A stretch of DNA of 64,000 nucleotides from a virus (Duplodnaviria; Caudoviricetes). The translations under genes were made by a program, and so were the position numbers. The stretch lies in the IMG/VR virus record IMGVR_UViG_3300035208_002098, positions 96,001 to 160,000 of that record. One strand, 5' to 3'. The notes under the pieces are model-generated. The model was given only the letters and a program-made list of their open reading frames with translations, did not search any database and was not told the DNA's origin. Of the stretch, positions 4,548-56,390 are shown in pieces; the stretch's first letter is position 1, and each line of letters begins with the position of its first letter.

Positions 4548-4562
4548 ATGTTTATTTTTTTG

Positions 4563-4647
4563 CAGACCCCGTAAGACTCGAACTTACAAACCAATTAAAG
4601 GCATTAGATTCAAAATCTAACGTGTTTACCAATTCCACCAGAGGTCT
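4563..4647 (-). tRNA. tRNA with Gln anticodon (TTG) on a Leu-like long-V-arm body
   Basis: D-arm GGTGGAATTGGTAAACAC, TTAGA-TTTTGAA-TCTAA, G73. Confidence 0.8.
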
Positions 4648-21335: not shown

Positions 21336-21367
21336 ATATTACCAATATTTCAATGAACTAAATCCAG

Positions 21368-21452
21368 TACGACCTGTAGGATTCGAACCTACGTTATACT
21401 ATTCGCCTCTACTGTGTAAAAGTAGTGCTCTTACCAACTGAGCTAAGGTCGC
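21368..21452 (-). tRNA. tRNA-Val(TAC), long variable region
   Basis: CTACT-TTTACAC-AGTAG. Confidence 0.85.
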
Positions 21453-21459
21453 ATTTTTG

Positions 21460-21547
21460 AGTACCCGGTCAGATTTGAACTGACGATGAAGCTTTCGCTT
21501 TGGTGGTTTTGCAGACCACCCCCTTCGACCACTCGGAGCACAGATAC
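21460..21547 (-). tRNA. tRNA-Cys(GCA), long variable arm
   Basis: GTGGT-CTGCAAA-ACCAC, V-arm AAGC-GAAA-GCTT, U73. Confidence 0.85.
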
Positions 21548-46493: not shown

Positions 46494-47528
46494 TTATTTT
46501 ATATATTCGTTAAGAATATCTTCATTATCAACCCAACTACCATTTAAATTACCATTTGGATGTAATACCATTTCATACACCGTATCAGGGTGTTTTTCCT
46601 TTTCATCATATAATTTAACTAGGTTAGCACCTTCCGAACACATATCAATATTTTGAAATTTATATACTTCAACATAATAATAGTATCCTAATAAATTTCT
46701 AATTGGTGTAAATCTATTATCATTATCAACTTTCGACCAAATATCATTTAATAAGATTTTATTATCTATATTATAATCCATTTTTTCTTGGTTAATCATT
46801 TTTGTTGTATCAAAATCCATTAATTCACGAAATATGATATTATCCATACCTAAATTTTGATAAAATTCCATATATTTAACCATTTCTTCTAATGAGTCGA
46901 TACCATCTTGTAACAATATACAACTCATACGTGGTCTTAACCCATTTGCTAATGATATTGTAGCTATTGTCTCAAGCATTTCGTTAGAACAATATCCAAT
47001 ATCATAACGCATAATATCTTTATTAATGGTTTCATCGTAATGTGATTTGCTTATATTCAAATGGTCAAATTTATTATCTATAATATGTTGTAATACTGTT
47101 TTACCTTCCATTATATCAAATAACCCACTACCATTAGTAGTTAAAGTCCTTTTACGATACCCATGTTTATTTATAATACGTAATATTTCCGGTAATCTTT
47201 TACTTTTAGTTGGTTCACCACCAGTAATTGAAATACTTGGGTTAATAGGTTTTAAGTATTCTAAAATAGCGTCAATTCTTTGAAAATATTCTTCATCATT
47301 TGTTATTTTTCCCTTTTTAAATGTTTGACTTCTATTTTCAAATCTTAATTGTGCTACACAAAACTTACAATCAGCATTACAATAATCATCAACAAAAATG
47401 GATAAATTTACATTACTATATACCTTTTTTTCCACACCATTAAAATTAAATGGGTATAAATTAAAATCTTCTACGTTGTAAAGTTCTTGTCTTTTTTCTC
47501 TAATCGGAGCAAATTTCATACATTTCAT
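46494..47528 (-). CDS. radical SAM protein
   Basis: CNADCKFC, ITGGEP, TTNG. Confidence 0.88.
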   Translation of the reverse strand: MKCMKFAPIREKRQELYNVEDFNLYPFNFNGVEKKVYSNVNLSIFVDDYCNADCKFCVAQLRFENRSQTFKKGKITNDEEYFQRIDAILEYLKPINPSISITGGEPTKSKRLPEILRIINKHGYRKRTLTTNGSGLFDIMEGKTVLQHIIDNKFDHLNISKSHYDETINKDIMRYDIGYCSNEMLETIATISLANGLRPRMSCILLQDGIDSLEEMVKYMEFYQNLGMDNIIFRELMDFDTTKMINQEKMDYNIDNKILLNDIWSKVDNDNRFTPIRNLLGYYYYVEVYKFQNIDMCSEGANLVKLYDEKEKHPDTVYEMVLHPNGNLNGSWVDNEDILNEYIK

Positions 47529-48202
47529 TATTTTAAATTTTTTTCGTATTCACTTCTACTAATCAAATCGATTCCAAAACATGTTCCATCTGAAGCATAT
47601 AGATTAAATTCTTCAATGTTTTGCACTATAAATGGTTTAACATACGTATTATCATCCATTCTCCCATAGTTCTGTAATTCATACACTATTGATTGTTCAA
47701 TTATCTTATATTCAGTTAGTTTATCAACTAACCAATCATCATCTTTACGTATTCTAACATTAAATTCAACCTTAAAATTAGGTATAAATTCGGTTGCTAA
47801 ATATAAATCACGACATTTCTTGAATATATCGTTATCCAAAATATAAAGATAATAATTTATACTTCTTTTAATAACCATAAAGATATTTGAACTATCACAA
47901 AAATCAGTTAAACGTTGAAGGTGTTTTGTCAAAATAATACCATTCGTTGAAATTGTTATCTTCTTACATCTACCAGAATATCTAGCATATTCTAAGAATA
48001 AATAAAAATCATCATGTAAAAATGGTTCCCCACCTTCTAATTGTAATTCAAAAAATTCATCAGACCCATCAATAATTTCTTTAAATTTTTCAAATTGAAG
48101 AAATGTAGTTTTATTAGGTTCACTAAACATACAACAGAAATCACATTTAACATTGCATTTATTAGTTAAATTCAAATATATTCGTCTTTTAGCAATACAC
48201 AT
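47528..48202 (-). CDS. radical SAM protein
   Basis: CNVKCDFC, EGGEPFL, STNG. Confidence 0.88.
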   Translation of the reverse strand: MCIAKRRIYLNLTNKCNVKCDFCCMFSEPNKTTFLQFEKFKEIIDGSDEFFELQLEGGEPFLHDDFYLFLEYARYSGRCKKITISTNGIILTKHLQRLTDFCDSSNIFMVIKRSINYYLYILDNDIFKKCRDLYLATEFIPNFKVEFNVRIRKDDDWLVDKLTEYKIIEQSIVYELQNYGRMDDNTYVKPFIVQNIEEFNLYASDGTCFGIDLISRSEYEKNLK

Positions 48203-49072: not shown

Positions 49073-49191
49073 ATTAAATATTTTTAATTATGAGACAAAG
49101 ATACAAATAAATTTTGATATATGCAACAATATTGGTAAATTAATTTGTGACCCATGAGGAATTCGAATCCCCAACCTCTTGGTTATTATTG

Positions 49192-49271
49192 AACGAGTGG
49201 AGGGATTCGAACCCACATTTACAACTCCGTTTACGTTTATATAGTTCGTAGCTATACTCGGTTACACTCGC
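49192..49271 (-). tRNA. tRNA-Arg(ACG), D-arm absent or relocated
   Basis: GCGAGTG/CACTCGT, 8-nt linker, TATAG-CTACGAA-CTATA. Confidence 0.75.
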
Positions 49272-49917
49272 TTATGATATTATATCTTTTAACCCATTTT
49301 CTGACCGTATTATCACTAACACCATATTTTCTACCTATTGCACAATACGACATATTTTTAATCATATCATTAAGTTCTAATTCTGTTGGCCATTCAACTT
49401 TCCTAAGGTCTAATCTAATTTTATTTACTGTTCTACCATCTATTTTTTTTACTTTATTTTCCGGTAAACCTTTACTTCCAAGACAATGTGTTGGTAAAGT
49501 TGAATTACAATTTGGGCATAAAAACCTTAAATTTTCTAATCTGTTATCATTATTAACACCATTAATGTGGTCTAATATTAAAGTTATTTTTTCACCTAAC
49601 CATTCACCTTTATTACCACATTTAACACATTTATACTCTAATAAATTATCATTAATAATTCTTTTTTTTATACAAGCCCGACTTATAATCGAATCCTTAG
49701 TAAAAAGCACATCATTTTCATACTTTGTTCGAACTCCAATATTTTCACGTTTTATTGTAAAATGACTAACATCTATCTCATATCGAACCAATAATTTCTT
49801 TAATATTTTATACGAACCACCAGACTCATTCCTATTTAGTTTTACCAACACTTCTCTATAACTATTACAACCAGCAACTATTATAACCAGCTCACTCTTT
49901 TCATATCTTTTATACAT
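49252..49917 (-). CDS. HNH homing endonuclease with C-terminal HTH
   Basis: LILDHINGVNNDNRLENLRFLCPNCN. Confidence 0.9.
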   Translation of the reverse strand: MYKRYEKSELVIIVAGCNSYREVLVKLNRNESGGSYKILKKLLVRYEIDVSHFTIKRENIGVRTKYENDVLFTKDSIISRACIKKRIINDNLLEYKCVKCGNKGEWLGEKITLILDHINGVNNDNRLENLRFLCPNCNSTLPTHCLGSKGLPENKVKKIDGRTVNKIRLDLRKVEWPTELELNDMIKNMSYCAIGRKYGVSDNTVRKWVKRYNIISECNRV

Positions 49918-50059
49918 ATATCGAACCTTTATATATAAATATATCGAATAATATGAAAGTTCGAATTATTTTAAATATTATTAGGTATTCAAAATCATAA
50001 AAATATAATATTTAGTGCTCTAATCCGATTGAGCTAATGAGCCAAATATATAACGTTTG

Positions 50060-50143
50060 CGGAAGAAGTAGAGTCCGAGTCCAATGCCTTACGGCACACA
50101 TTGTTTAGCAAACAAGTCCACCAGCCCCAGTGGTTCATCTTCC
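50060..50143 (-). tRNA. tRNA-Ser(GCT)
   Basis: Loop TTGCTAA, long V-arm, G73. Confidence 0.78.
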
Positions 50144-50165
50144 ATTTAATAAGTATTTGTTTATG

Positions 50166-50237
50166 TGACCTCACTGGAATTCGAATCCAGATTTAAAGTT
50201 TAGGAAACTCCCGTTCTATCCATTAAACTATGTGGCC
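50166..50237 (-). tRNA. tRNA-Arg(CCT)
   Basis: Loop TTCCTAA. Confidence 0.85.
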
Positions 50238-50238
50238 A

Positions 50239-50481
50239 TTAAGGATTAATTTGTTGTTGAATATCTTTAATATGTGTTACAATATTTTGAACATTAACAT
50301 GTTTAACTGCTTTAGTTAAAAAATCTATTGTGGTCTCATCATTTTGATACATATCAATAGCACCTAGAATATTATTTAATTCGTTACGTAATCGTTCAAT
50401 TGGTGTTTCATTTTCTTCATATTCACCATTTGAAAATTCCATTAAATTTTCTCTAATTTTAATTTTAGTATCTCGTTTCAT
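50239..50481 (-). CDS. hypothetical protein (KIRE N-terminal motif)
   Basis: 80 aa ORF. Confidence 0.6.
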   Translation of the reverse strand: MKRDTKIKIRENLMEFSNGEYEENETPIERLRNELNNILGAIDMYQNDETTIDFLTKAVKHVNVQNIVTHIKDIQQQINP

Positions 50482-50511
50482 TGTATTAATATTATATACA
50501 ATAAATATCTA

Positions 50512-51114
50512 TCAATTCTTATAGTTCTTAACATACCTATCTTTTCTAGCAGAATTTTTATTCTTAGATTTATATGTTCCTAATTGCGAATCACAATTAG
50601 GGCATACACACCTTAAATTACTTCTAGTATTATTACTAGCATCACCATCAATATGGTCTAATATAAATACTATAGGTTTATTATTCCAAATATCTAACAT
50701 CCTACATATATCACATAAATTATTTTGTTCTTTTAAAATATGTGGTTTTATAGCTTTAGTATCATATAATATACCACGATATTGCTCTTGATTAATTAAA
50801 TAATTTTCATACGTTGAATTCATCTTATATTCACTAGAACATCTTATACTACAAAATTTTTGTTTATCATAACTAGTTGTAATACATTTACCACAATTTA
50901 AACAAATAATTTTTTTTATTGTACCAGTATTATATGGTTTAAAACCTTCAGGAAAAGTCTTCCTTGTAATCAATTGTATACCTAAACGTTTACATACTTT
51001 TTTTATGTAAGTATCACTAACACCATATATCTCACCTATTTTAGTATAGGGTAATTTTTCTTCAAAAATTAATTTTTCTAAATCACCCTTTTTGTATTTA
51101 TCTTCAAAATTCAT
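50512..51114 (-). CDS. HNH homing endonuclease
   Basis: FILDHIDGDASNNTRSNLRCVCPNC. Confidence 0.9.
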   Translation of the reverse strand: MNFEDKYKKGDLEKLIFEEKLPYTKIGEIYGVSDTYIKKVCKRLGIQLITRKTFPEGFKPYNTGTIKKIICLNCGKCITTSYDKQKFCSIRCSSEYKMNSTYENYLINQEQYRGILYDTKAIKPHILKEQNNLCDICRMLDIWNNKPIVFILDHIDGDASNNTRSNLRCVCPNCDSQLGTYKSKNKNSARKDRYVKNYKN

Positions 51115-51196
51115 AATATGTTTTATTATAAATATCTAGATAAATAATAAACGAACCAAAAGTAAATATTTTTTTAAGTTTACTTTTGGTTCGTTG

Positions 51197-51282
51197 TGAA
51201 CGAGGGGGGAGTCGAACCCACAAGTACTTTACAGTAAACGATTTAGAAGACCGTGACGCTTCCAATTACGTGCTACTCGTCC
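51197..51282 (-). tRNA. tRNA-Arg(TCT), long variable arm
   Basis: ACGGT-CTTCTAA-ATCGT. Confidence 0.8.
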
Positions 51283-51532
51283 ATTACACCATGAAGGCAT
51301 TTTTTAATGTTTATATAATTTGAATATAGTTTCTTCTATTTCATCACGAATATCTTCATCCGTTAATTTAATATCCTTCATCTCATCTTCTATCATAATA
51401 TCCTCATTAATAATAGTCATTTCTATTTTATCATCTATGTTTTTCATATGTTTATCCTTTTACTATAATTATCACAAATATACTAAATAGTTAAGATAAA
51501 TTCAATATTTTCTTAACCAATTTATTAAAAAG

Positions 51533-51612
51533 AGGTCTAGGTGGGGGTCGAACCCACATTTACAATATCCATTACCCGTAACAGTTTCGAAGACTGAGGG
51601 GATTACAAGACC
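51533..51612 (-). tRNA. tRNA-Arg(TCG), D-arm absent or relocated
   Basis: GGTCTTG/CTAGACC, 8-nt linker, CAGT-CTTCGAA-ACTG. Confidence 0.72.
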
Positions 51613-51613
51613 A

Positions 51614-52039
51614 TTACCCTATTGGTGCAACATATCTAGGGTTTTCGTTTCTTAATATAGCTATTAACTTTCTAATTTCTTTAGGTTGTTCACTATACCA
51701 ATTATTGGCTTCAATAACTAAATCATTATATTCTTCCTCACTATAACAGAATATTTTACCATCAATTTCGATATCAGTACTAGCGAGTGATAATTCCGGA
51801 TAGTCAATAATAGGTTCTAAAACAATACCAGCAACGTTAACCCAAAAATTATAATCCTCATCAGATAATTCAATTCTACCGTTACTAAATAAACTATCAA
51901 TCATAATTTTAGCATCAAATATAGTACAATTAAAATATTTTTTAGCTTCACTTATAGCATTATGTCTACCAAATTTAAATATACCGTTATACGATATTAC
52001 ATAATATTTTTTCATAATTAAATTGTTATTAGAATACAA
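51614..52039 (-). CDS. hypothetical protein
   Basis: 141 aa ORF; true start probably MKKYY. Confidence 0.65.
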   Translation of the reverse strand: MYSNNNLIMKKYYVISYNGIFKFGRHNAISEAKKYFNCTIFDAKIMIDSLFSNGRIELSDEDYNFWVNVAGIVLEPIIDYPELSLASTDIEIDGKIFCYSEEEYNDLVIEANNWYSEQPKEIRKLIAILRNENPRYVAPIG

Positions 52040-52083
52040 AGATAATACAATTAATTTAATTTACCAAATATTTTATTTTTTAG

Positions 52084-52168
52084 TACACCCGGAGGGATTC
52101 GAACCCCCAAGAACATAAAGTCACCTCTTTAGAAGAGAGGGACGCTTCCAATTACGTGCTACGGATGC
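52084..52168 (-). tRNA. tRNA-Arg(TCT), long variable arm
   Basis: CCTCT-CTTCTAA-AGAGG. Confidence 0.82.
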
Positions 52169-52178
52169 ATTTTTAAGA

Positions 52179-52264
52179 GGGAAGGGTGGGAGTCGAACCC
52201 ACGATGGAACTTACGTTCACCAGATTAACAGTCTGGACTTTTCGACCACTAAAGCAACCGACCC
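52179..52264 (-). tRNA. tRNA-Asn(GTT), long variable arm
   Basis: CCAGA-CTGTTAA-TCTGG, V-arm GAAC-GTAA-GTTC. Confidence 0.78.
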
Positions 52265-52351
52265 ATGGCGTGATTATTTGAACTAGCGTTCTGGAACTAC
52301 TAAACCTCGTCATACTCTAATCACAATAACCAATAAGTATGCAGAACCTCG

Positions 52352-52432
52352 TATTGATGGTGGGATTCGAACCCACGTTTTCAATTTACCACTACGAATA
52401 TCCAAGATATAAGCTTGGCTCGGTACATCAAT
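52352..52432 (-). tRNA. tRNA-Ile(TAT), D-arm absent or relocated
   Basis: ATTGATG/CATCAAT, 7-nt linker, CCAAG-CTTATAT-CTTGG. Confidence 0.75.
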
Positions 52433-53010: not shown

Positions 53011-53015
53011 ATTTG

Positions 53016-53100
53016 TCGTCTGGGTGAGATTTGAACTCACGTTGAGAATTAATCTCACAGCTTATCAGGCTGTTTTCTGCCACCACTCGAATACCAGACA
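53016..53100 (-). tRNA. tRNA-Ile(GAT), long variable arm
   Basis: ACAGC-CTGATAA-GCTGT, V-arm GAGA..TCTC. Confidence 0.82.
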
Positions 53101-53146: not shown

Positions 53147-53803
53147 CTACACAAGATATCGACCTTTTATCCAACCTTCATTTTCCCAGTTAGATAAGTC
53201 TTCGTTTTTAATCTTCTTATTAATATTATCTTTAGTAATCCAACAGGTACCATATTGTGAATTAGTTTCACCAACACCAGTACCACTTTTAATTTCAGAC
53301 ATTTTTAGTTTAGTTTCATTTGAATGGTTTTTATCTGTCCAATTATAAAAATATTTTCGTTCTAAAACTTCATCATCATATAATTTCTTAATAGTCTTAA
53401 CAAATTTTCCACTTCTTTTTTTAACCCAATCTGGGTTTGTTTCTCTAAGTTCTTTTTGTCTCTCATTAGATTTAAACGCATTTAATCTTTGTTCTTCTGA
53501 AGTAAAACCTCTTCCACCTTCACCACCAATCATTAGATTCATACATAAATCTTCCTTTAATAATTGTTTATTTACAAGCTCTTTTTCACGCTCTTTTAAT
53601 GATTCTCTATCTGGTAAAAATTCTAATATCTCTTTAATGAAATTTTCTTTACCATAATAATTAATTGAAAACCATAATCGTTTACCTGAACCTAGATAAC
53701 CATCTTCTAGGTTATTAGTACTATGCATTCCTATATAGTACTTATTGTTTATTACATTTGTTGTTTTATAAATGTAATGATATTGTTTTTGTCTTCTACC
53801 CAT
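53147..53803 (-). CDS. GIY-YIG (Seg-like) homing endonuclease
   Basis: Paralog of 17600 and 20004. Confidence 0.88.
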   Translation of the reverse strand: MGRRQKQYHYIYKTTNVINNKYYIGMHSTNNLEDGYLGSGKRLWFSINYYGKENFIKEILEFLPDRESLKEREKELVNKQLLKEDLCMNLMIGGEGGRGFTSEEQRLNAFKSNERQKELRETNPDWVKKRSGKFVKTIKKLYDDEVLERKYFYNWTDKNHSNETKLKMSEIKSGTGVGETNSQYGTCWITKDNINKKIKNEDLSNWENEGWIKGRYLV

Positions 53804-54187: not shown

Positions 54188-54195
54188 ATATTTTG

Positions 54196-54284
54196 CACAT
54201 CGGTAGGGATTCGAACCCTCATCTAATCTTACGACCCTTAAGGACTGGGTTGGAGCCAGCTAGTCACGCCTAATGAGCCGATGT
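54196..54284 (-). tRNA. atypical tRNA-Trp(CCA), long variable region
   Basis: GCTGG-CTCCAAC-CCAGT. Confidence 0.65.
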
Positions 54285-54469: not shown

Positions 54470-54562
54470 TTACAAGAAATTAAACATACCTGATTCGGAA
54501 TGGATAGAACGTCTAATGTTCGACCAATTACTATGAATACTATGTATATTATTATTTCTCAT
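54470..54562 (-). CDS. leader peptide 3: MRNNNIHSIHSNWSNIRRSIHSESGMFNFL
   Basis: 30 aa ORF; codons 2-22 are only R,N,I,H,S,W. Confidence 0.9.
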   Translation of the reverse strand: MRNNNIHSIHSNWSNIRRSIHSESGMFNFL

Positions 54563-54700: not shown

Positions 54701-55228
54701 TTATTTTAAAAATTTAGCTGGTACGTGGTCAGTTAACCAGACACCGTTAGTTGATTGATAGAAAATAAACCCTTCGTTATACATTTCACCGGCTAATACT
54801 TCAAATATAATTGGTTTACCATGTCTACTACCGACATTTGTGGCCGTTTCAATATCATTACTTAAATGAACATAGTCTCTTTTTAATTTTAGTAATCCAT
54901 TTTCATTAATCGATTTAACACTATCAATACTAGTACCATGATATAATATATTAGGTGGTGTTTTACTTTCATATTGTAGGTCAATACCTAATGAATGGCC
55001 TTGACTAGCTCTGATTTTTGATTTATCATTATTAAACTCAAATCTTTTTTTATTATTAGTTCTAACAATAAACTCAAGTTCTTCAATGTCTATTTTTCTA
55101 CCATTTTTATTCATTTGTAATAGTAATTGGGTAACTTCTACCCAACCACTATTATCTAATTTTAAACCTATTGTTTCTGGTTTATGTCTTAATATAAGAC
55201 TTAAAAACCTACTATTATCGTTACTCAT
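54701..55228 (-). CDS. kptA: RNA 2'-phosphotransferase Tpt1/KptA
   Basis: SLILRH, KKRF, IRASQGHS, YHGT, VHLS. Confidence 0.93.
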   Translation of the reverse strand: MSNDNSRFLSLILRHKPETIGLKLDNSGWVEVTQLLLQMNKNGRKIDIEELEFIVRTNNKKRFEFNNDKSKIRASQGHSLGIDLQYESKTPPNILYHGTSIDSVKSINENGLLKLKRDYVHLSNDIETATNVGSRHGKPIIFEVLAGEMYNEGFIFYQSTNGVWLTDHVPAKFLK

Positions 55229-56390
55229 TTAACATTTTATTAAAGTTTTCTAATTCAAGTTCATGTATTTTTTTACCCATTTCAGGTCCGGGTTTAATAC
55301 CTAATTTTTCTATATCTTCACCGGTAACTGTAAATTTAAAATCTAAGAATTTATCAATTAATTCGATGTCCATATTGTTTAATTCAGCGAATCTAATAAC
55401 TTCATCATTAGAAATTTTAGATAAAATTTGTGATTTTTTCGCATTATAAACTAAATTTGGTTCAAAATATAAGAATGACATTAAGAAGTATATTTTACCT
55501 ATTTCATCACTAGTATATTTTAACTCAGCTAACACTTTTTTTACGAGTGCTGGTGAATTACCTTCAAATATTATGGCCATTAAAACAATTGGACTTTTAA
55601 CTTCAATTAAATTAAAATGTCTAATGTTTAAACCGGGAAAAATAAGTTTAAACATATCATAAACAAATAAACTATTTAAAAATTGTCTAACTGATTTTGC
55701 TGTTTTAACACCTTTAATAAATTCATCTCGAATTCTTTCTGGTGACACACCAATTAAGTTATTATCTTTAGTTATAGCACCAGCTGTTTTGGAGTTCATA
55801 TTAAAACCAAATCTAGCTGAAAATCTAATAGCTCTTAATTTTCTAAGTTTATCTTCATTAAATCTATCAATTGGTTCACCAACAGTTCTAATTTCGCTAA
55901 AACGTAAATCGTAAATACCATCAACTAAGTCAACTATTTGACTTTTTTCTATATCATAGAATAAAGCATTGATTGTTAAATCTCTTCTAAGTACATCCTT
56001 TTCTATAGTTGAGAATATAACTTCATCAGGTCTTCTTGAGTCGGTATAATCACCATCTTCTCTGAATGTCGCAATTTCATATTCGTCATTACCAGTAATA
56101 ACATTAATAACACCAAATGCTTTACCGGTTTCCAAGATATTAGTAACAAATGGTTGACCTTTAAGAATTTCAATTATTTTATCTGGTATTGCATTTGTAG
56201 CTAAATCCCAATCTTTTGGTTTTAACCCTAAATATGCATCACGAACTGAACCACCGACTAGGAATAAGTCAAACCCAAATGTTTTAAAAACTTTATTGAT
56301 TTTTATAACATCTTCTGGTAAATCTATTTTAAAATCTAATCTTGTTTCCATTTTATTGTTCTTTTTAATTAGGATACAAAGATAACACAA
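55221..56390 (-). CDS. cca: CCA-adding tRNA nucleotidyltransferase
   Basis: VGGSVRD, KDWDLAT, RRDLTINA, EDKLR.LRAIRF; most tRNAs here lack an encoded CCA. Confidence 0.88.
   Translation of the reverse strand: MCYLCILIKKNNKMETRLDFKIDLPEDVIKINKVFKTFGFDLFLVGGSVRDAYLGLKPKDWDLATNAIPDKIIEILKGQPFVTNILETGKAFGVINVITGNDEYEIATFREDGDYTDSRRPDEVIFSTIEKDVLRRDLTINALFYDIEKSQIVDLVDGIYDLRFSEIRTVGEPIDRFNEDKLRKLRAIRFSARFGFNMNSKTAGAITKDNNLIGVSPERIRDEFIKGVKTAKSVRQFLNSLFVYDMFKLIFPGLNIRHFNLIEVKSPIVLMAIIFEGNSPALVKKVLAELKYTSDEIGKIYFLMSFLYFEPNLVYNAKKSQILSKISNDEVIRFAELNNMDIELIDKFLDFKFTVTGEDIEKLGIKPGPEMGKKIHELELENFNKMLNE

What the first reader, a model, noticed from the sequence alone, without database searches (positions are those of the whole stretch)
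49192..52432. Three tRNAs with the D-arm missing and a D-like hairpin 3' of the anticodon arm
Arg(ACG) 49192, Arg(TCG) 51533 and Ile(TAT) 52352 each join acceptor to anticodon arm with only 7-8 nt. Each then has a ~23-25 nt variable region with a GG-containing D-loop-like sequence (TAAACGGAG, TAATGGATA, TAGTGGTAA) in a short stem. The same plan in three diverged genes with near-intact acceptor, anticodon and T stems suggests a functional rearranged cloverleaf rather than decay.
Basis: partly seen in the sequence, partly recalled or inferred. Interest (0 to 1): 0.78.

Follow-up and report, generated by a model that had tools for sequence, protein, structure and literature searches.

The report
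Phage tRNAs with a rewired D-arm
Three genes in this giant phage encode two arginine tRNAs and one isoleucine tRNA whose D-arm is not lost but rebuilt from pieces on both sides of the anticodon arm; more than a hundred phage contigs share this non-cloverleaf layout, one tRNA finder misses it, and I found no paper that describes it.

Summary
The three elements are real, on the minus strand: tRNA-Arg(ACG) 49192-49271, tRNA-Arg(UCG) 51533-51612 and tRNA-Ile(UAU) 52352-52432. ARAGORN misses all three. Rfam's tRNA model hits them only by deleting the D-arm.

In 29 Arg-type and 31 Ile-type relatives the local hairpin fails. Instead, the 7-8 nt 5' linker pairs with two segments 3' of the anticodon arm (helices H1 and H2). 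These segments flank the GG loop, and the pairs show many compensatory changes.

The loop still behaves like a D-loop:
- Its third base covaries with the last base before the T stem, like the R15-Y48 Levitt pair.
- The base after GG is A in 35 of 35 Arg-type genes, matching the ArgRS determinant A20. It is mostly U in Ile-type genes.

I found 86 distinct members in 49 of the first 100 sources, 54 more loci in a capped second scan, and unannotated copies in two cultured phages. Bacterial genome hits lie only on phage-like MAG contigs.

In this phage the three genes are the only genes found with these anticodons; AUA makes up 38 per 1000 codons.

They are most likely working tRNAs with a transposed D-arm half.

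This scan noted the same family earlier on other DNA.

The parts
52352..52432 (-). tRNA-Ile(UAU) gene, 81 nt with discriminator A; no encoded CCA
   Evidence: RF00005 39.5 bits with the D-arm deleted. Family model R1 55.7 bits. Parsed and checked. Not called by ARAGORN.
52419..52425 (-). Ile: 7-nt 5' linker UACCGAG. It comprises U8, A9, C10 (H2 5' side), CGA (H1 5' strand) and a G spacer.
   Evidence: Family covariation at alignment A4 columns 10-14.
52395..52397 (-). Ile: H1 3' strand UCG, pairing with linker CGA around the anticodon arm
   Evidence: A4 pairs 11-38 CG30/AU1, 12-37 GC24/AU7, 13-36 AU11/GC8/UA8/CG1.
52386..52394 (-). Ile: D-loop-like bulge UAGUGGUAA (A14-like A, R15-like G, G18G19-like GG, U20-like U)
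   Evidence: Its third base G covaries with the last pre-T-stem base C at 52377: GC25/AU6, 0 exceptions in A4.
52382..52385 (-). Ile: H2 3' strand AUUG. In this copy the covarying pair C10-A is a mismatch.
   Evidence: A4 pair 10-50 CG24/UA3/GC2/UG1. The one unpaired row is this window's gene.
51533..51612 (-). tRNA-Arg(UCG) gene, 80 nt with discriminator U; one U-U mismatch in the acceptor stem
   Evidence: RF00005 26.8 bits, below the gathering score of 29. R1 84.4 bits, E 1.2e-16. Parsed.
51598..51605 (-). Arg(UCG): 8-nt linker UAAUCCCC = H2 5' strand UAAU, H1 5' strand CCC and spacer C
   Evidence: Covariation in alignments A2 and A5.
51575..51577 (-). Arg(UCG): H1 3' strand GGG (pairs with CCC)
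   Evidence: A5 pairs 12-40 CG29, 13-39 GC18/CG7/AU4, 14-38 GC9/AU5/CG5/UA2. RNAalifold predicts this helix unprompted.
51567..51574 (-). Arg(UCG): D-loop-like bulge UAAUGGAU with the A20-like A after GG
   Evidence: The base after GG is A in 35/35 Arg-type members. The Levitt-like partner is U at 51558.
51563..51566 (-). Arg(UCG): H2 3' strand AUUG (pairs with UAAU, 4/4)
   Evidence: A5 pairs 10-51 AU18/GC9/CG1/UA1 and 11-50 CG18/UA6/AU2/UG2.
49192..49271 (-). tRNA-Arg(ACG) gene, 80 nt with discriminator U. Its first 20 nt overlap the stop-proximal end of the HNH ORF 49252-49917.
   Evidence: RF00005 29.9 bits. R1 88.1 bits, E 1.7e-17. Parsed. ORF positions.
49257..49264 (-). Arg(ACG): 8-nt linker UAACCGAG = H2 5' strand UAAC, H1 5' strand CGA and spacer G
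49234..49236 (-). Arg(ACG): H1 3' strand ACG (C-G, G-C, then an A-A mismatch in this copy)
49226..49233 (-). Arg(ACG): D-loop-like bulge UAAACGGA
49222..49225 (-). Arg(ACG): H2 3' strand GUUG (pairs with UAAC, 4/4)

Best explanation
The three genes encode elongator tRNAs (Arg-ACG, Arg-UCG, Ile-UAU) of a phage-specific structural class. In this class the 5' half of the D-arm (the 5' strand of the D-stem plus the D-loop) lies after the anticodon arm instead of before it.

Shown by covariation:
- The 7-8 nt linker between the acceptor and anticodon stems acts as the 3' strand of a rebuilt D-stem.
- Its 3' part pairs with three bases about 3-4 nt beyond the anticodon stem (H1), so H1 encloses the anticodon arm.
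- Its 5' part pairs with the bases that follow the GG loop (H2).
- The GG loop is therefore a bulge held between two strands that both pair with the linker. The fold is nested: a three-way junction, not a cloverleaf and not a pseudoknot.

Inferred:
- The canonical tertiary core survives (U8-A14, R15-Y48, G18G19 to the T-loop), so the molecule still forms an L.
- Host ArgRS and IleRS charge these tRNAs. No such enzyme was found in the phage record.
- The phage CCA-adding enzyme supplies the missing CCA.
- The tRNAs then read CGN and the very frequent AUA codons.

Why the rewired form is kept is open. It could be a neutral topological isomer that spread by duplication and anticodon switching, or a way to escape nucleases that recognise ordinary tRNAs or tRNA genes.
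For: Structure, Arg type:
- 29 sequences, MAFFT alignment made without structure (A5). H1 pairs: 13-39 GC18/CG7/AU4 with 0 unpaired; 14-38 four pair types. H2 pairs: 10-51 AU18/GC9/CG1/UA1 with 0 unpaired; 11-50 CG18/UA6/AU2/UG2.
- 94% of cells are paired against 68% in shuffles and 38-47% when partners are slid.

Structure, Ile type:
- 31 sequences (A4). 12-37 GC24/AU7; 13-36 AU11/GC8/UA8/CG1; 10-50 CG24/UA3/GC2/UG1.
- RNAalifold finds H1 unprompted and no local hairpin.
- Family-wide, H1 has 3/3 pairs in 60 and 2/3 in 24 of 86 distinct members.

D-loop equivalence:
- The Levitt-like pair is GC25/AU6 with no exception in A4, and A-U 52 plus G-C 28 of 86 family-wide.
- U8, the A14-like A, GG and the T-loop are invariant or nearly so.

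Identity elements:
- The base after GG is A in 35/35 Arg-type members and U34/G8/A2/C1 in Ile-type members.
- The discriminator is A in 45/45 Ile-type members and U/A/G in Arg-type members.
- This matches the bacterial sets listed in PMC9976931: Arg A20, C35, A/G/U73; Ile A73, U20.
- All ACG members carry the loop CUACGAA.

Need:
- In this phage AUA is 38.4, CGU 6.8 and CGA 3.2 per 1000 codons.
- No other gene with these anticodons was found.
- In cultured Maribacter phage Panino the rewired Arg(UCU) sits in the tRNA array beside an ordinary Arg(ACG). In Vibrio phage D419 the rewired Arg(ACG) is the only Arg gene in the 8 kb of array I examined.

Feasibility: E. coli HisRS, EF-Tu and the ribosome accept a D-armless tRNA without adaptation (PMC11551756).
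Against: - There is no RNA, charging or decoding evidence of any kind.
- The outer H2 pairs (U8-G, A9-U) never vary, so they are unproven. They would conflict with a U8-A14 tertiary pair.
- With H2 stacked on H1, the Arg type leaves only one base (A20) between GG and H2. That looks tight if GG must reach the T-loop. No 3D model was made.
- Two of the window's three copies have a mismatch at a covarying pair: Ile C10-A and Arg(ACG) A-A in H1. Arg(UCG) has a U-U in its acceptor stem.
- The Ile identity pairs known from E. coli (U12-A23, C29-G41, A38) are not kept in the window's Ile gene (PMC9976931).
- The host is unknown.
Confidence: 0.7

Rival explanations
1. These are tRNA-like RNAs that fold as shown but do not serve translation. 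They could be decoys or sponges for tRNA-cleaving defence nucleases or other tRNA-binding host factors, or regulators of the phage's own tRNA operons.
For:
- The core is non-canonical.
- Phage tRNAs are known to counter tRNA-targeting defences (Azam 2024, as cited in PMC12475279).
- Some window copies carry mismatches.
Against: - A decoy needs no isotype-specific A20-like base, A73 or exact anticodon loops, yet these are kept.
- The members fill anticodon slots that are otherwise empty in the arrays.
- AUA is very frequent here, and this gene is the only one found with the UAU anticodon.
Confidence: 0.15
2. One reading: the D-arm is simply lost, and a self-contained D-like hairpin in the variable region supplies the GG loop.
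For: In the window's Ile gene a UUCG/UGAA stem can be drawn around the GG motif. Minimum-energy folds draw various local stems.
Against: - The hairpin pairs are broken in most relatives: 13/17 and 10/17, 21/31 and 23/31.
- The same bases covary with the 5' linker instead.
- RNAalifold predicts no such hairpin.
Confidence: 0.03
3. These are decaying tRNA pseudogenes that lost the D-arm by deletion in a homing-endonuclease-rich region.
For: - Homing endonuclease genes lie nearby: HNH ORFs at 49252-49917 and 50512-51114, and a GIY-YIG ORF at 53147-53803.
- tRNA half-remnants flank Arg(ACG).
- ARAGORN does not call the genes.
Against: - The same plan is found in 86 distinct sequences from 49 of the first 100 sources, plus 54 more loci and two cultured phages.
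- Compensatory changes occur in all helices.
- Decay does not preserve pairing or identity bases.
Confidence: 0.03
4. The gene order is rearranged only in the DNA. The transcript is cut and religated into an ordinary cloverleaf, as with permuted tRNA genes of red algae, perhaps using the neighbouring Tpt1/KptA.
For: A 2'-phosphotransferase of the Tpt1 family (the last step of one tRNA ligation pathway; my own knowledge) and a CCA-adding enzyme lie beside the array.
Against: - The order is not a circular permutation. Restoring the cloverleaf would need excision and reinsertion of an internal piece.
- The H1/H2 and Levitt-like covariation show selection on the fold of the RNA as encoded.
- No bulge-helix-bulge or intron signal was seen.
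Confidence: 0.02

Closest known systems
Ordinary bacterial and phage tRNA-Arg and tRNA-Ile (Rfam RF00005)
   Same: - 7-bp acceptor stem with a discriminator base.
- 5-bp anticodon stem with a 7-nt loop.
- 5-bp T stem with the UUCGAAU loop.
- U8, GG, an A20-like base in Arg, A73 in Ile, and R15-Y48-like covariation.
- Location in phage tRNA arrays.
   Different: - There is no D hairpin between positions 9 and 26.
- The 5' D-stem strand and D-loop lie after the anticodon arm.
- The D-stem forms between the 5' linker and two separated 3' segments.
- The junction is three-way rather than four-way.
D-arm-lacking mitochondrial tRNAs (metazoan mt-tRNA-Ser(AGY), nematode and mite armless tRNAs; PMC9427863, PMC12221289)
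   Same: No hairpin at the D-arm position, and a short connector between the acceptor and anticodon stems.
   Different: - The mitochondrial forms have lost the D-loop and the D-loop/T-loop contact, and they need adapted partner proteins.
- Here the D-loop motif, the T-loop and the Levitt-like pair are all kept, and the D-stem is rebuilt.
Engineered 'mini HisT' D-armless tRNA accepted by E. coli (PMC11551756)
   Same: It shows that a bacterial synthetase, EF-Tu and the ribosome tolerate a tRNA without a normal D-arm.
   Different: - It is man-made, truly armless, and limited by PNPase degradation.
- The phage family is natural and keeps D-arm functions in a new connectivity.
- That paper states that all known bacterial tRNAs are cloverleaves.
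Circularly permuted tRNA genes of Cyanidioschyzon merolae (from my own knowledge; not read here)
   Same: The gene order of tRNA parts differs from the mature cloverleaf order.
   Different: - Those are circular permutations repaired by RNA processing into normal tRNAs.
- Here the order is an internal transposition, and covariation supports the fold of the unrearranged RNA.
allo-tRNAs and 8/4 or 9/3 tRNAs (Mukai 2017; reviewed in PMC7609411)
   Same: Natural non-canonical tRNAs from bacteria and phages that standard finders mishandle.
   Different: These vary acceptor and T stem lengths and carry long variable arms. Their D-arm is in the normal place.

Membership tests
tRNA (Rfam RF00005, canonical cloverleaf) | Score at or above the Rfam gathering threshold (29 bits) | tested here: inconclusive
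   39.5 bits (Ile) and 29.9 (Arg ACG) pass; 26.8 (Arg UCG) fails. All three align with the D-arm deleted.
tRNA (Rfam RF00005, canonical cloverleaf) | Acceptor stem, anticodon arm (U33, purine 37) and T arm with a TPsiC-type loop | tested here: met
   These helices covary across relatives.
tRNA (Rfam RF00005, canonical cloverleaf) | D hairpin (stem 10-13/22-25 with loop) between position 9 and the anticodon stem | tested here: not met
   Only 7-8 nt lie there. Rfam deletes 15 model positions. ARAGORN does not call the genes.
tRNA (Rfam RF00005, canonical cloverleaf) | Tertiary core: U8, A14, R15-Y48 pair, G18G19 facing the T-loop | tested here: inconclusive
   The sequence signs are present and the R15-Y48-like pair covaries (31/31; 80/86). 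The 3D contacts themselves cannot be tested here.
tRNA (functional definition) | Aminoacylation and use on the ribosome | not testable with these tools
Only indirect signs exist: identity bases, and codon need with otherwise empty anticodon slots.
Rewired-D-arm phage tRNAs (Arg/Ile class; unpublished, noted earlier in this scan) | H1: linker 3' part pairs with bases just 3' of the anticodon arm, with covariation | tested here: met
   Window copies pair 3/3, 3/3 and 2/3.
Rewired-D-arm phage tRNAs (Arg/Ile class; unpublished, noted earlier in this scan) | H2: linker 5' part pairs with bases after the GG loop, with covariation | tested here: met
   A5 pairs 10-51 and 11-50 and A4 pair 10-50. Window copies: Arg 4/4 and 4/4; Ile has C-A at the covarying pair.
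Rewired-D-arm phage tRNAs (Arg/Ile class; unpublished, noted earlier in this scan) | UAR..GG bulge between H1 and H2, and a match to the family covariance model | tested here: met
   R1 scores of 88.1, 84.4 and 55.7 bits. Motifs.
Mitochondrial-type D-armless tRNA | D-replacement loop without a GG/T-loop interaction; degenerate T-loop | tested here: not met
   The GG loop, the canonical T-loop and the Levitt-like pair are retained.

The most novel reading that the evidence does not exclude
These are fully working tRNAs, charged by ordinary bacterial ArgRS/IleRS and read by the ribosome, although they are not cloverleaves. That would make them a natural topological isomer of the tRNA core.

In addition, the rewiring is adaptive:
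- It keeps the L-shape that the translation machinery needs.
- It removes the contiguous D-arm that tRNA-cleaving defence or shut-off nucleases recognise in the RNA.
- It also removes the sequence that the homing endonucleases crowding these arrays recognise in the DNA.
Probability: 0.15. Interest if true: 0.92.

Novelty: new variant of a known kind. Interest (0 to 1): 0.8.

Why it matters
- A 2024 paper still states that all known bacterial tRNAs are cloverleaves (PMC11551756). A large natural family that rebuilds the D-arm with a different strand order would show that the L-shape, not the cloverleaf, is what bacterial translation requires.
- ARAGORN misses these genes, and GenBank records leave them blank or call them 'hypothetical protein'. 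Phage tRNA repertoires and codon-compensation analyses are therefore undercounted. Here the only gene found that could read the abundant AUA codon was invisible.
- The design offers natural scaffolds for orthogonal tRNAs.
- It is a testable case for the arms race around tRNA-targeting defences.

Tried and rejected
- **Local D-like hairpin.** I tested it on A2 and A4 in the register given by the window's own sequences. It was rejected.
- **GG pairing with the linker CC.** This was my first idea. The linker C positions covary with, or are fixed opposite, other G's (H1 top and H2 bottom), not the GG.
- **Single-sequence MFE folding.** No signal.
- **MAFFT of all 57 first members together.** It misaligned the 7-nt and 8-nt linker types, so I analysed the types separately.
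- **blastn of the Ile gene against cultured phages.** One uncultured hit only. The Arg query did reach cultured phages.
- **Bacterial genome scan.** 120 loci (capped), mostly chance matches. Only 7 are members, all on MAG contigs, five of them with dense tRNA arrays nearby.
- **Second viral scan.** 118 matches (capped): 54 members and 64 chance matches in coding DNA.
- **Phage-encoded ArgRS or IleRS.** None in the record, which is about 70% complete.
- **Literature.** Seven searches found no description of this layout. The 2020 review of non-canonical tRNAs has no phage case.
- **3D modelling.** No tool was available for RNA.
Full report
**Setting.** The window is bases 96001-160000 of a 248,412-bp IMG/VR phage record with 28% G+C, estimated at about 70% complete. 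All its tRNA genes are on the minus strand. ARAGORN finds 43 in the window and 48 in the record; Rfam's tRNA model matches 54 places. The array is interspersed with HNH and GIY-YIG homing endonuclease genes. Beside it lie a Tpt1/KptA 2'-phosphotransferase, a CCA-adding enzyme and a radical SAM protein.

**The observation.**
- ARAGORN calls none of them. Rfam's tRNA model hits all three (29.9, 26.8, 39.5 bits) by deleting its 15 D-arm positions and inserting about 20 nt in the variable region.
- Acceptor, anticodon and T arms are intact or nearly so. The linkers are 8, 8 and 7 nt. The stretch between the anticodon and T arms is 23, 23 and 25 nt and contains UAAACGGA, UAAUGGAU and UAGUGGUAA.
- Folding each sequence alone says nothing.

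**Relatives.**
- An exact-pattern scan of IMG/VR with the shared 3' motif returned 114 loci. 76 matches parsed as the same plan, giving 63 distinct sequences.
- I built a covariance model from 17 Arg-type members and searched the window plus the first 99 loci. It recovered many more members that do not fit the seed pattern.
- The total was 86 distinct members in 49 of those 100 sources. Anticodons: GAU 23, UAU 22, UCU 15, UCG 13, ACG 6, CAU 5, CCU 1, CUU 1. 23 of the sources carry two to six members, as this window does.
54 were members, with T stems changed in a compensatory way.
- Only these three members occur in the present record.

**Which fold.** All alignments were made by MAFFT without structural input.
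- Arg type, 17 sequences: the hairpin pairs are broken in 13/17 and 10/17 rows.
- Arg type, extended to 29 sequences including two cultured phages:
  - H1 pairs the linker's 3' part with three bases just beyond the anticodon stem. Pair 12-40 is invariant C-G; 13-39 is GC18/CG7/AU4 with none unpaired; 14-38 shows four pair types, and six of its eight exceptions are A-C.
  - H2 pairs the linker's 5' part with the bases after the GG loop. Pair 10-51 is AU18/GC9/CG1/UA1 with none unpaired; 11-50 is CG18/UA6/AU2/UG2.
  - 94% of cells pair, against 68% after shuffling and 38-47% when partners are slid.
- Ile type, 31 sequences: the hairpin fails (21/31 and 23/31 broken). H1 and the inner H2 pair covary: 12-37 GC24/AU7; 13-36 AU11/GC8/UA8/CG1; 10-50 CG24/UA3/GC2/UG1.
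- RNAalifold, given only the alignment, predicts H1 around the anticodon arm and no hairpin.
- The outermost H2 pairs (U8-G, A9-U) never vary and remain unproven.

The fold is nested: acceptor stem, then H2, H1 and the anticodon stem on one continuous 5' strand, with the GG loop bulging between the H1 and H2 partner strands, then a 5-nt tail and the T arm.

**Is the GG loop a D-loop?**
- After H1's 3' strand the family reads U-A-R, then 0-3 bases, then GG. The R covaries with the last base before the T stem: G-C 25 and A-U 6 with no exception in the Ile type, and A-U 52 plus G-C 28 of 86 over the family. Canonical tRNAs show exactly this pattern and position in the R15-Y48 Levitt pair.
- The base after GG is A in all 35 Arg-type members and mostly U in Ile-type members. 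The discriminator is A in all 45 Ile-type members.
- The bacterial identity sets in PMC9976931 list A20, C35 and A/G/U73 for Arg, and A73 and U20 for Ile.
- Read against the canonical numbering, the linker corresponds to U8, an A21-like base, 22-25 and 26. The segment after the anticodon arm corresponds to 10-12(13), the D-loop 14-20, and then a tail ending in 48. In other words, the 5' half of the D-arm has been transposed to the far side of the anticodon arm. This mapping is my inference; no 3D test was possible.

**Function.**
- The phage uses AUA at 38.4 per 1000 codons, CGU at 6.8 and CGA at 3.2. No other gene with the anticodons UAU, ACG or UCG was found in the record.
- No ArgRS or IleRS gene is present, so host enzymes would have to charge these tRNAs.
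- None of the three genes encodes CCA. The phage has a CCA-adding enzyme.
This is consistent but weak.
- In cultured Maribacter phage Panino, a member with anticodon UCU sits in the tRNA array beside an ordinary Arg(ACG), under a CDS annotated 'hypothetical protein'. In Vibrio phage D419, a member with anticodon ACG lies in an unannotated gap and is the only Arg gene in the 8 kb of array I examined.
- Of 120 pattern hits in bacterial and archaeal genomes, only seven are members. All are on MAG contigs, and five of them have dense tRNA arrays nearby. The class is effectively viral.
- E. coli HisRS, EF-Tu and the ribosome accept an engineered D-armless tRNA without adaptation (PMC11551756), so acceptance of a better-preserved core is plausible.

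**What is missing.**
- There is no RNA, charging or decoding evidence.
- The window's copies are not perfect: Ile has C-A at the covarying H2 pair, Arg(ACG) has A-A in H1, and Arg(UCG) has U-U in the acceptor stem.
- Geometry is a concern for the Arg type. Only one base separates GG from H2, so GG may not reach the T-loop if H2 stacks on H1.

**Novelty.** Seven literature searches, the 2020 review of non-canonical tRNAs and the 2024 NAR paper turned up no description. The NAR paper states that all known bacterial tRNAs are cloverleaves. Notes of this same scan on other genomes describe the same Arg and Ile design and related Tyr and Trp designs. I reached the same fold independently here and tested it, so I treat those notes as agreeing leads, not as evidence.

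**Verdict.** The elements are members of a large, conserved, phage-borne class of Arg/Ile tRNAs with a transposed D-arm half. I put the structure at about 0.9 and service in translation at about 0.7. Why the layout is kept is unknown.

Noticed in passing
window 50058-50143 (-): A tRNA-Ser(GCU)-like RNA of about 86 nt. It has an acceptor stem, a D-arm, the loop UUGCUAA and a long variable hairpin, but no recognisable T arm. Neither ARAGORN nor Rfam calls it. AGU is 22.3 per 1000 codons and no other Ser(GCU) gene was found in the record.
   Followed up: partly
window 50010-50045 (-) and 49148-49190 (-): A tRNA 5' half (acceptor strand, U8 A9, D-arm) and a tRNA 3' half (T arm, acceptor strand) whose acceptor strands pair 7/7. 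They flank the HNH ORF 49252-49917 plus the rewired Arg(ACG). It looks like a tRNA gene split by an endonuclease-plus-tRNA cassette. The HNH ORF's end overlaps the first 20 nt of Arg(ACG).
   Followed up: partly
window, e.g. 281-366, 1954-2039, 2705-2791, 4562-4647, 21367-21547, 51196-51282, 52083-52264, 53015-53100, 54195-54284 (all -): About fifteen tRNAs of isotypes that normally have short variable loops (Thr, Lys, Glu, Gln, Val, Cys, Arg UCU, Asn, Ile, Trp, Met) are 82-90 nt long. The ones inspected have a normal D-arm plus a hairpin variable arm. They often sit beside a 72-77 nt copy with the same anticodon.
   Followed up: no
window 54470-54562 (-): A 30-codon ORF (MRNNNIHSIHSNWSNIRRSIHSESGMFNFL) upstream of the Asn-Trp-Ser-His-Ile-Met-Arg tRNA block, followed by a terminator-like hairpin. 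It uses mostly the amino acids of the tRNAs behind it and includes AUA and CGU codons.
   Followed up: partly
window 54701-55228 (-), 55221-56390 (-), 47528-48202 (-): A Tpt1/KptA RNA 2'-phosphotransferase, a CCA-adding enzyme and a radical SAM protein flank the tRNA array.
   Followed up: no
L002, L005, L009 and about 30 other small IMG/VR contigs (e.g. L069:7038-7132): A conserved 95-nt RNA with a normal D-arm, an odd middle part, and the same 3' portion (CGUAAAC..GAAGUUGUAAAY plus T arm) as the rewired family. It could be a relative or an intermediate; unexplained.
   Followed up: no
G000:C1:93270-93343 (-), 2.7 kb before the window: A tRNA with anticodon CUA (amber suppressor type), called by ARAGORN as Pyl.
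   Followed up: no
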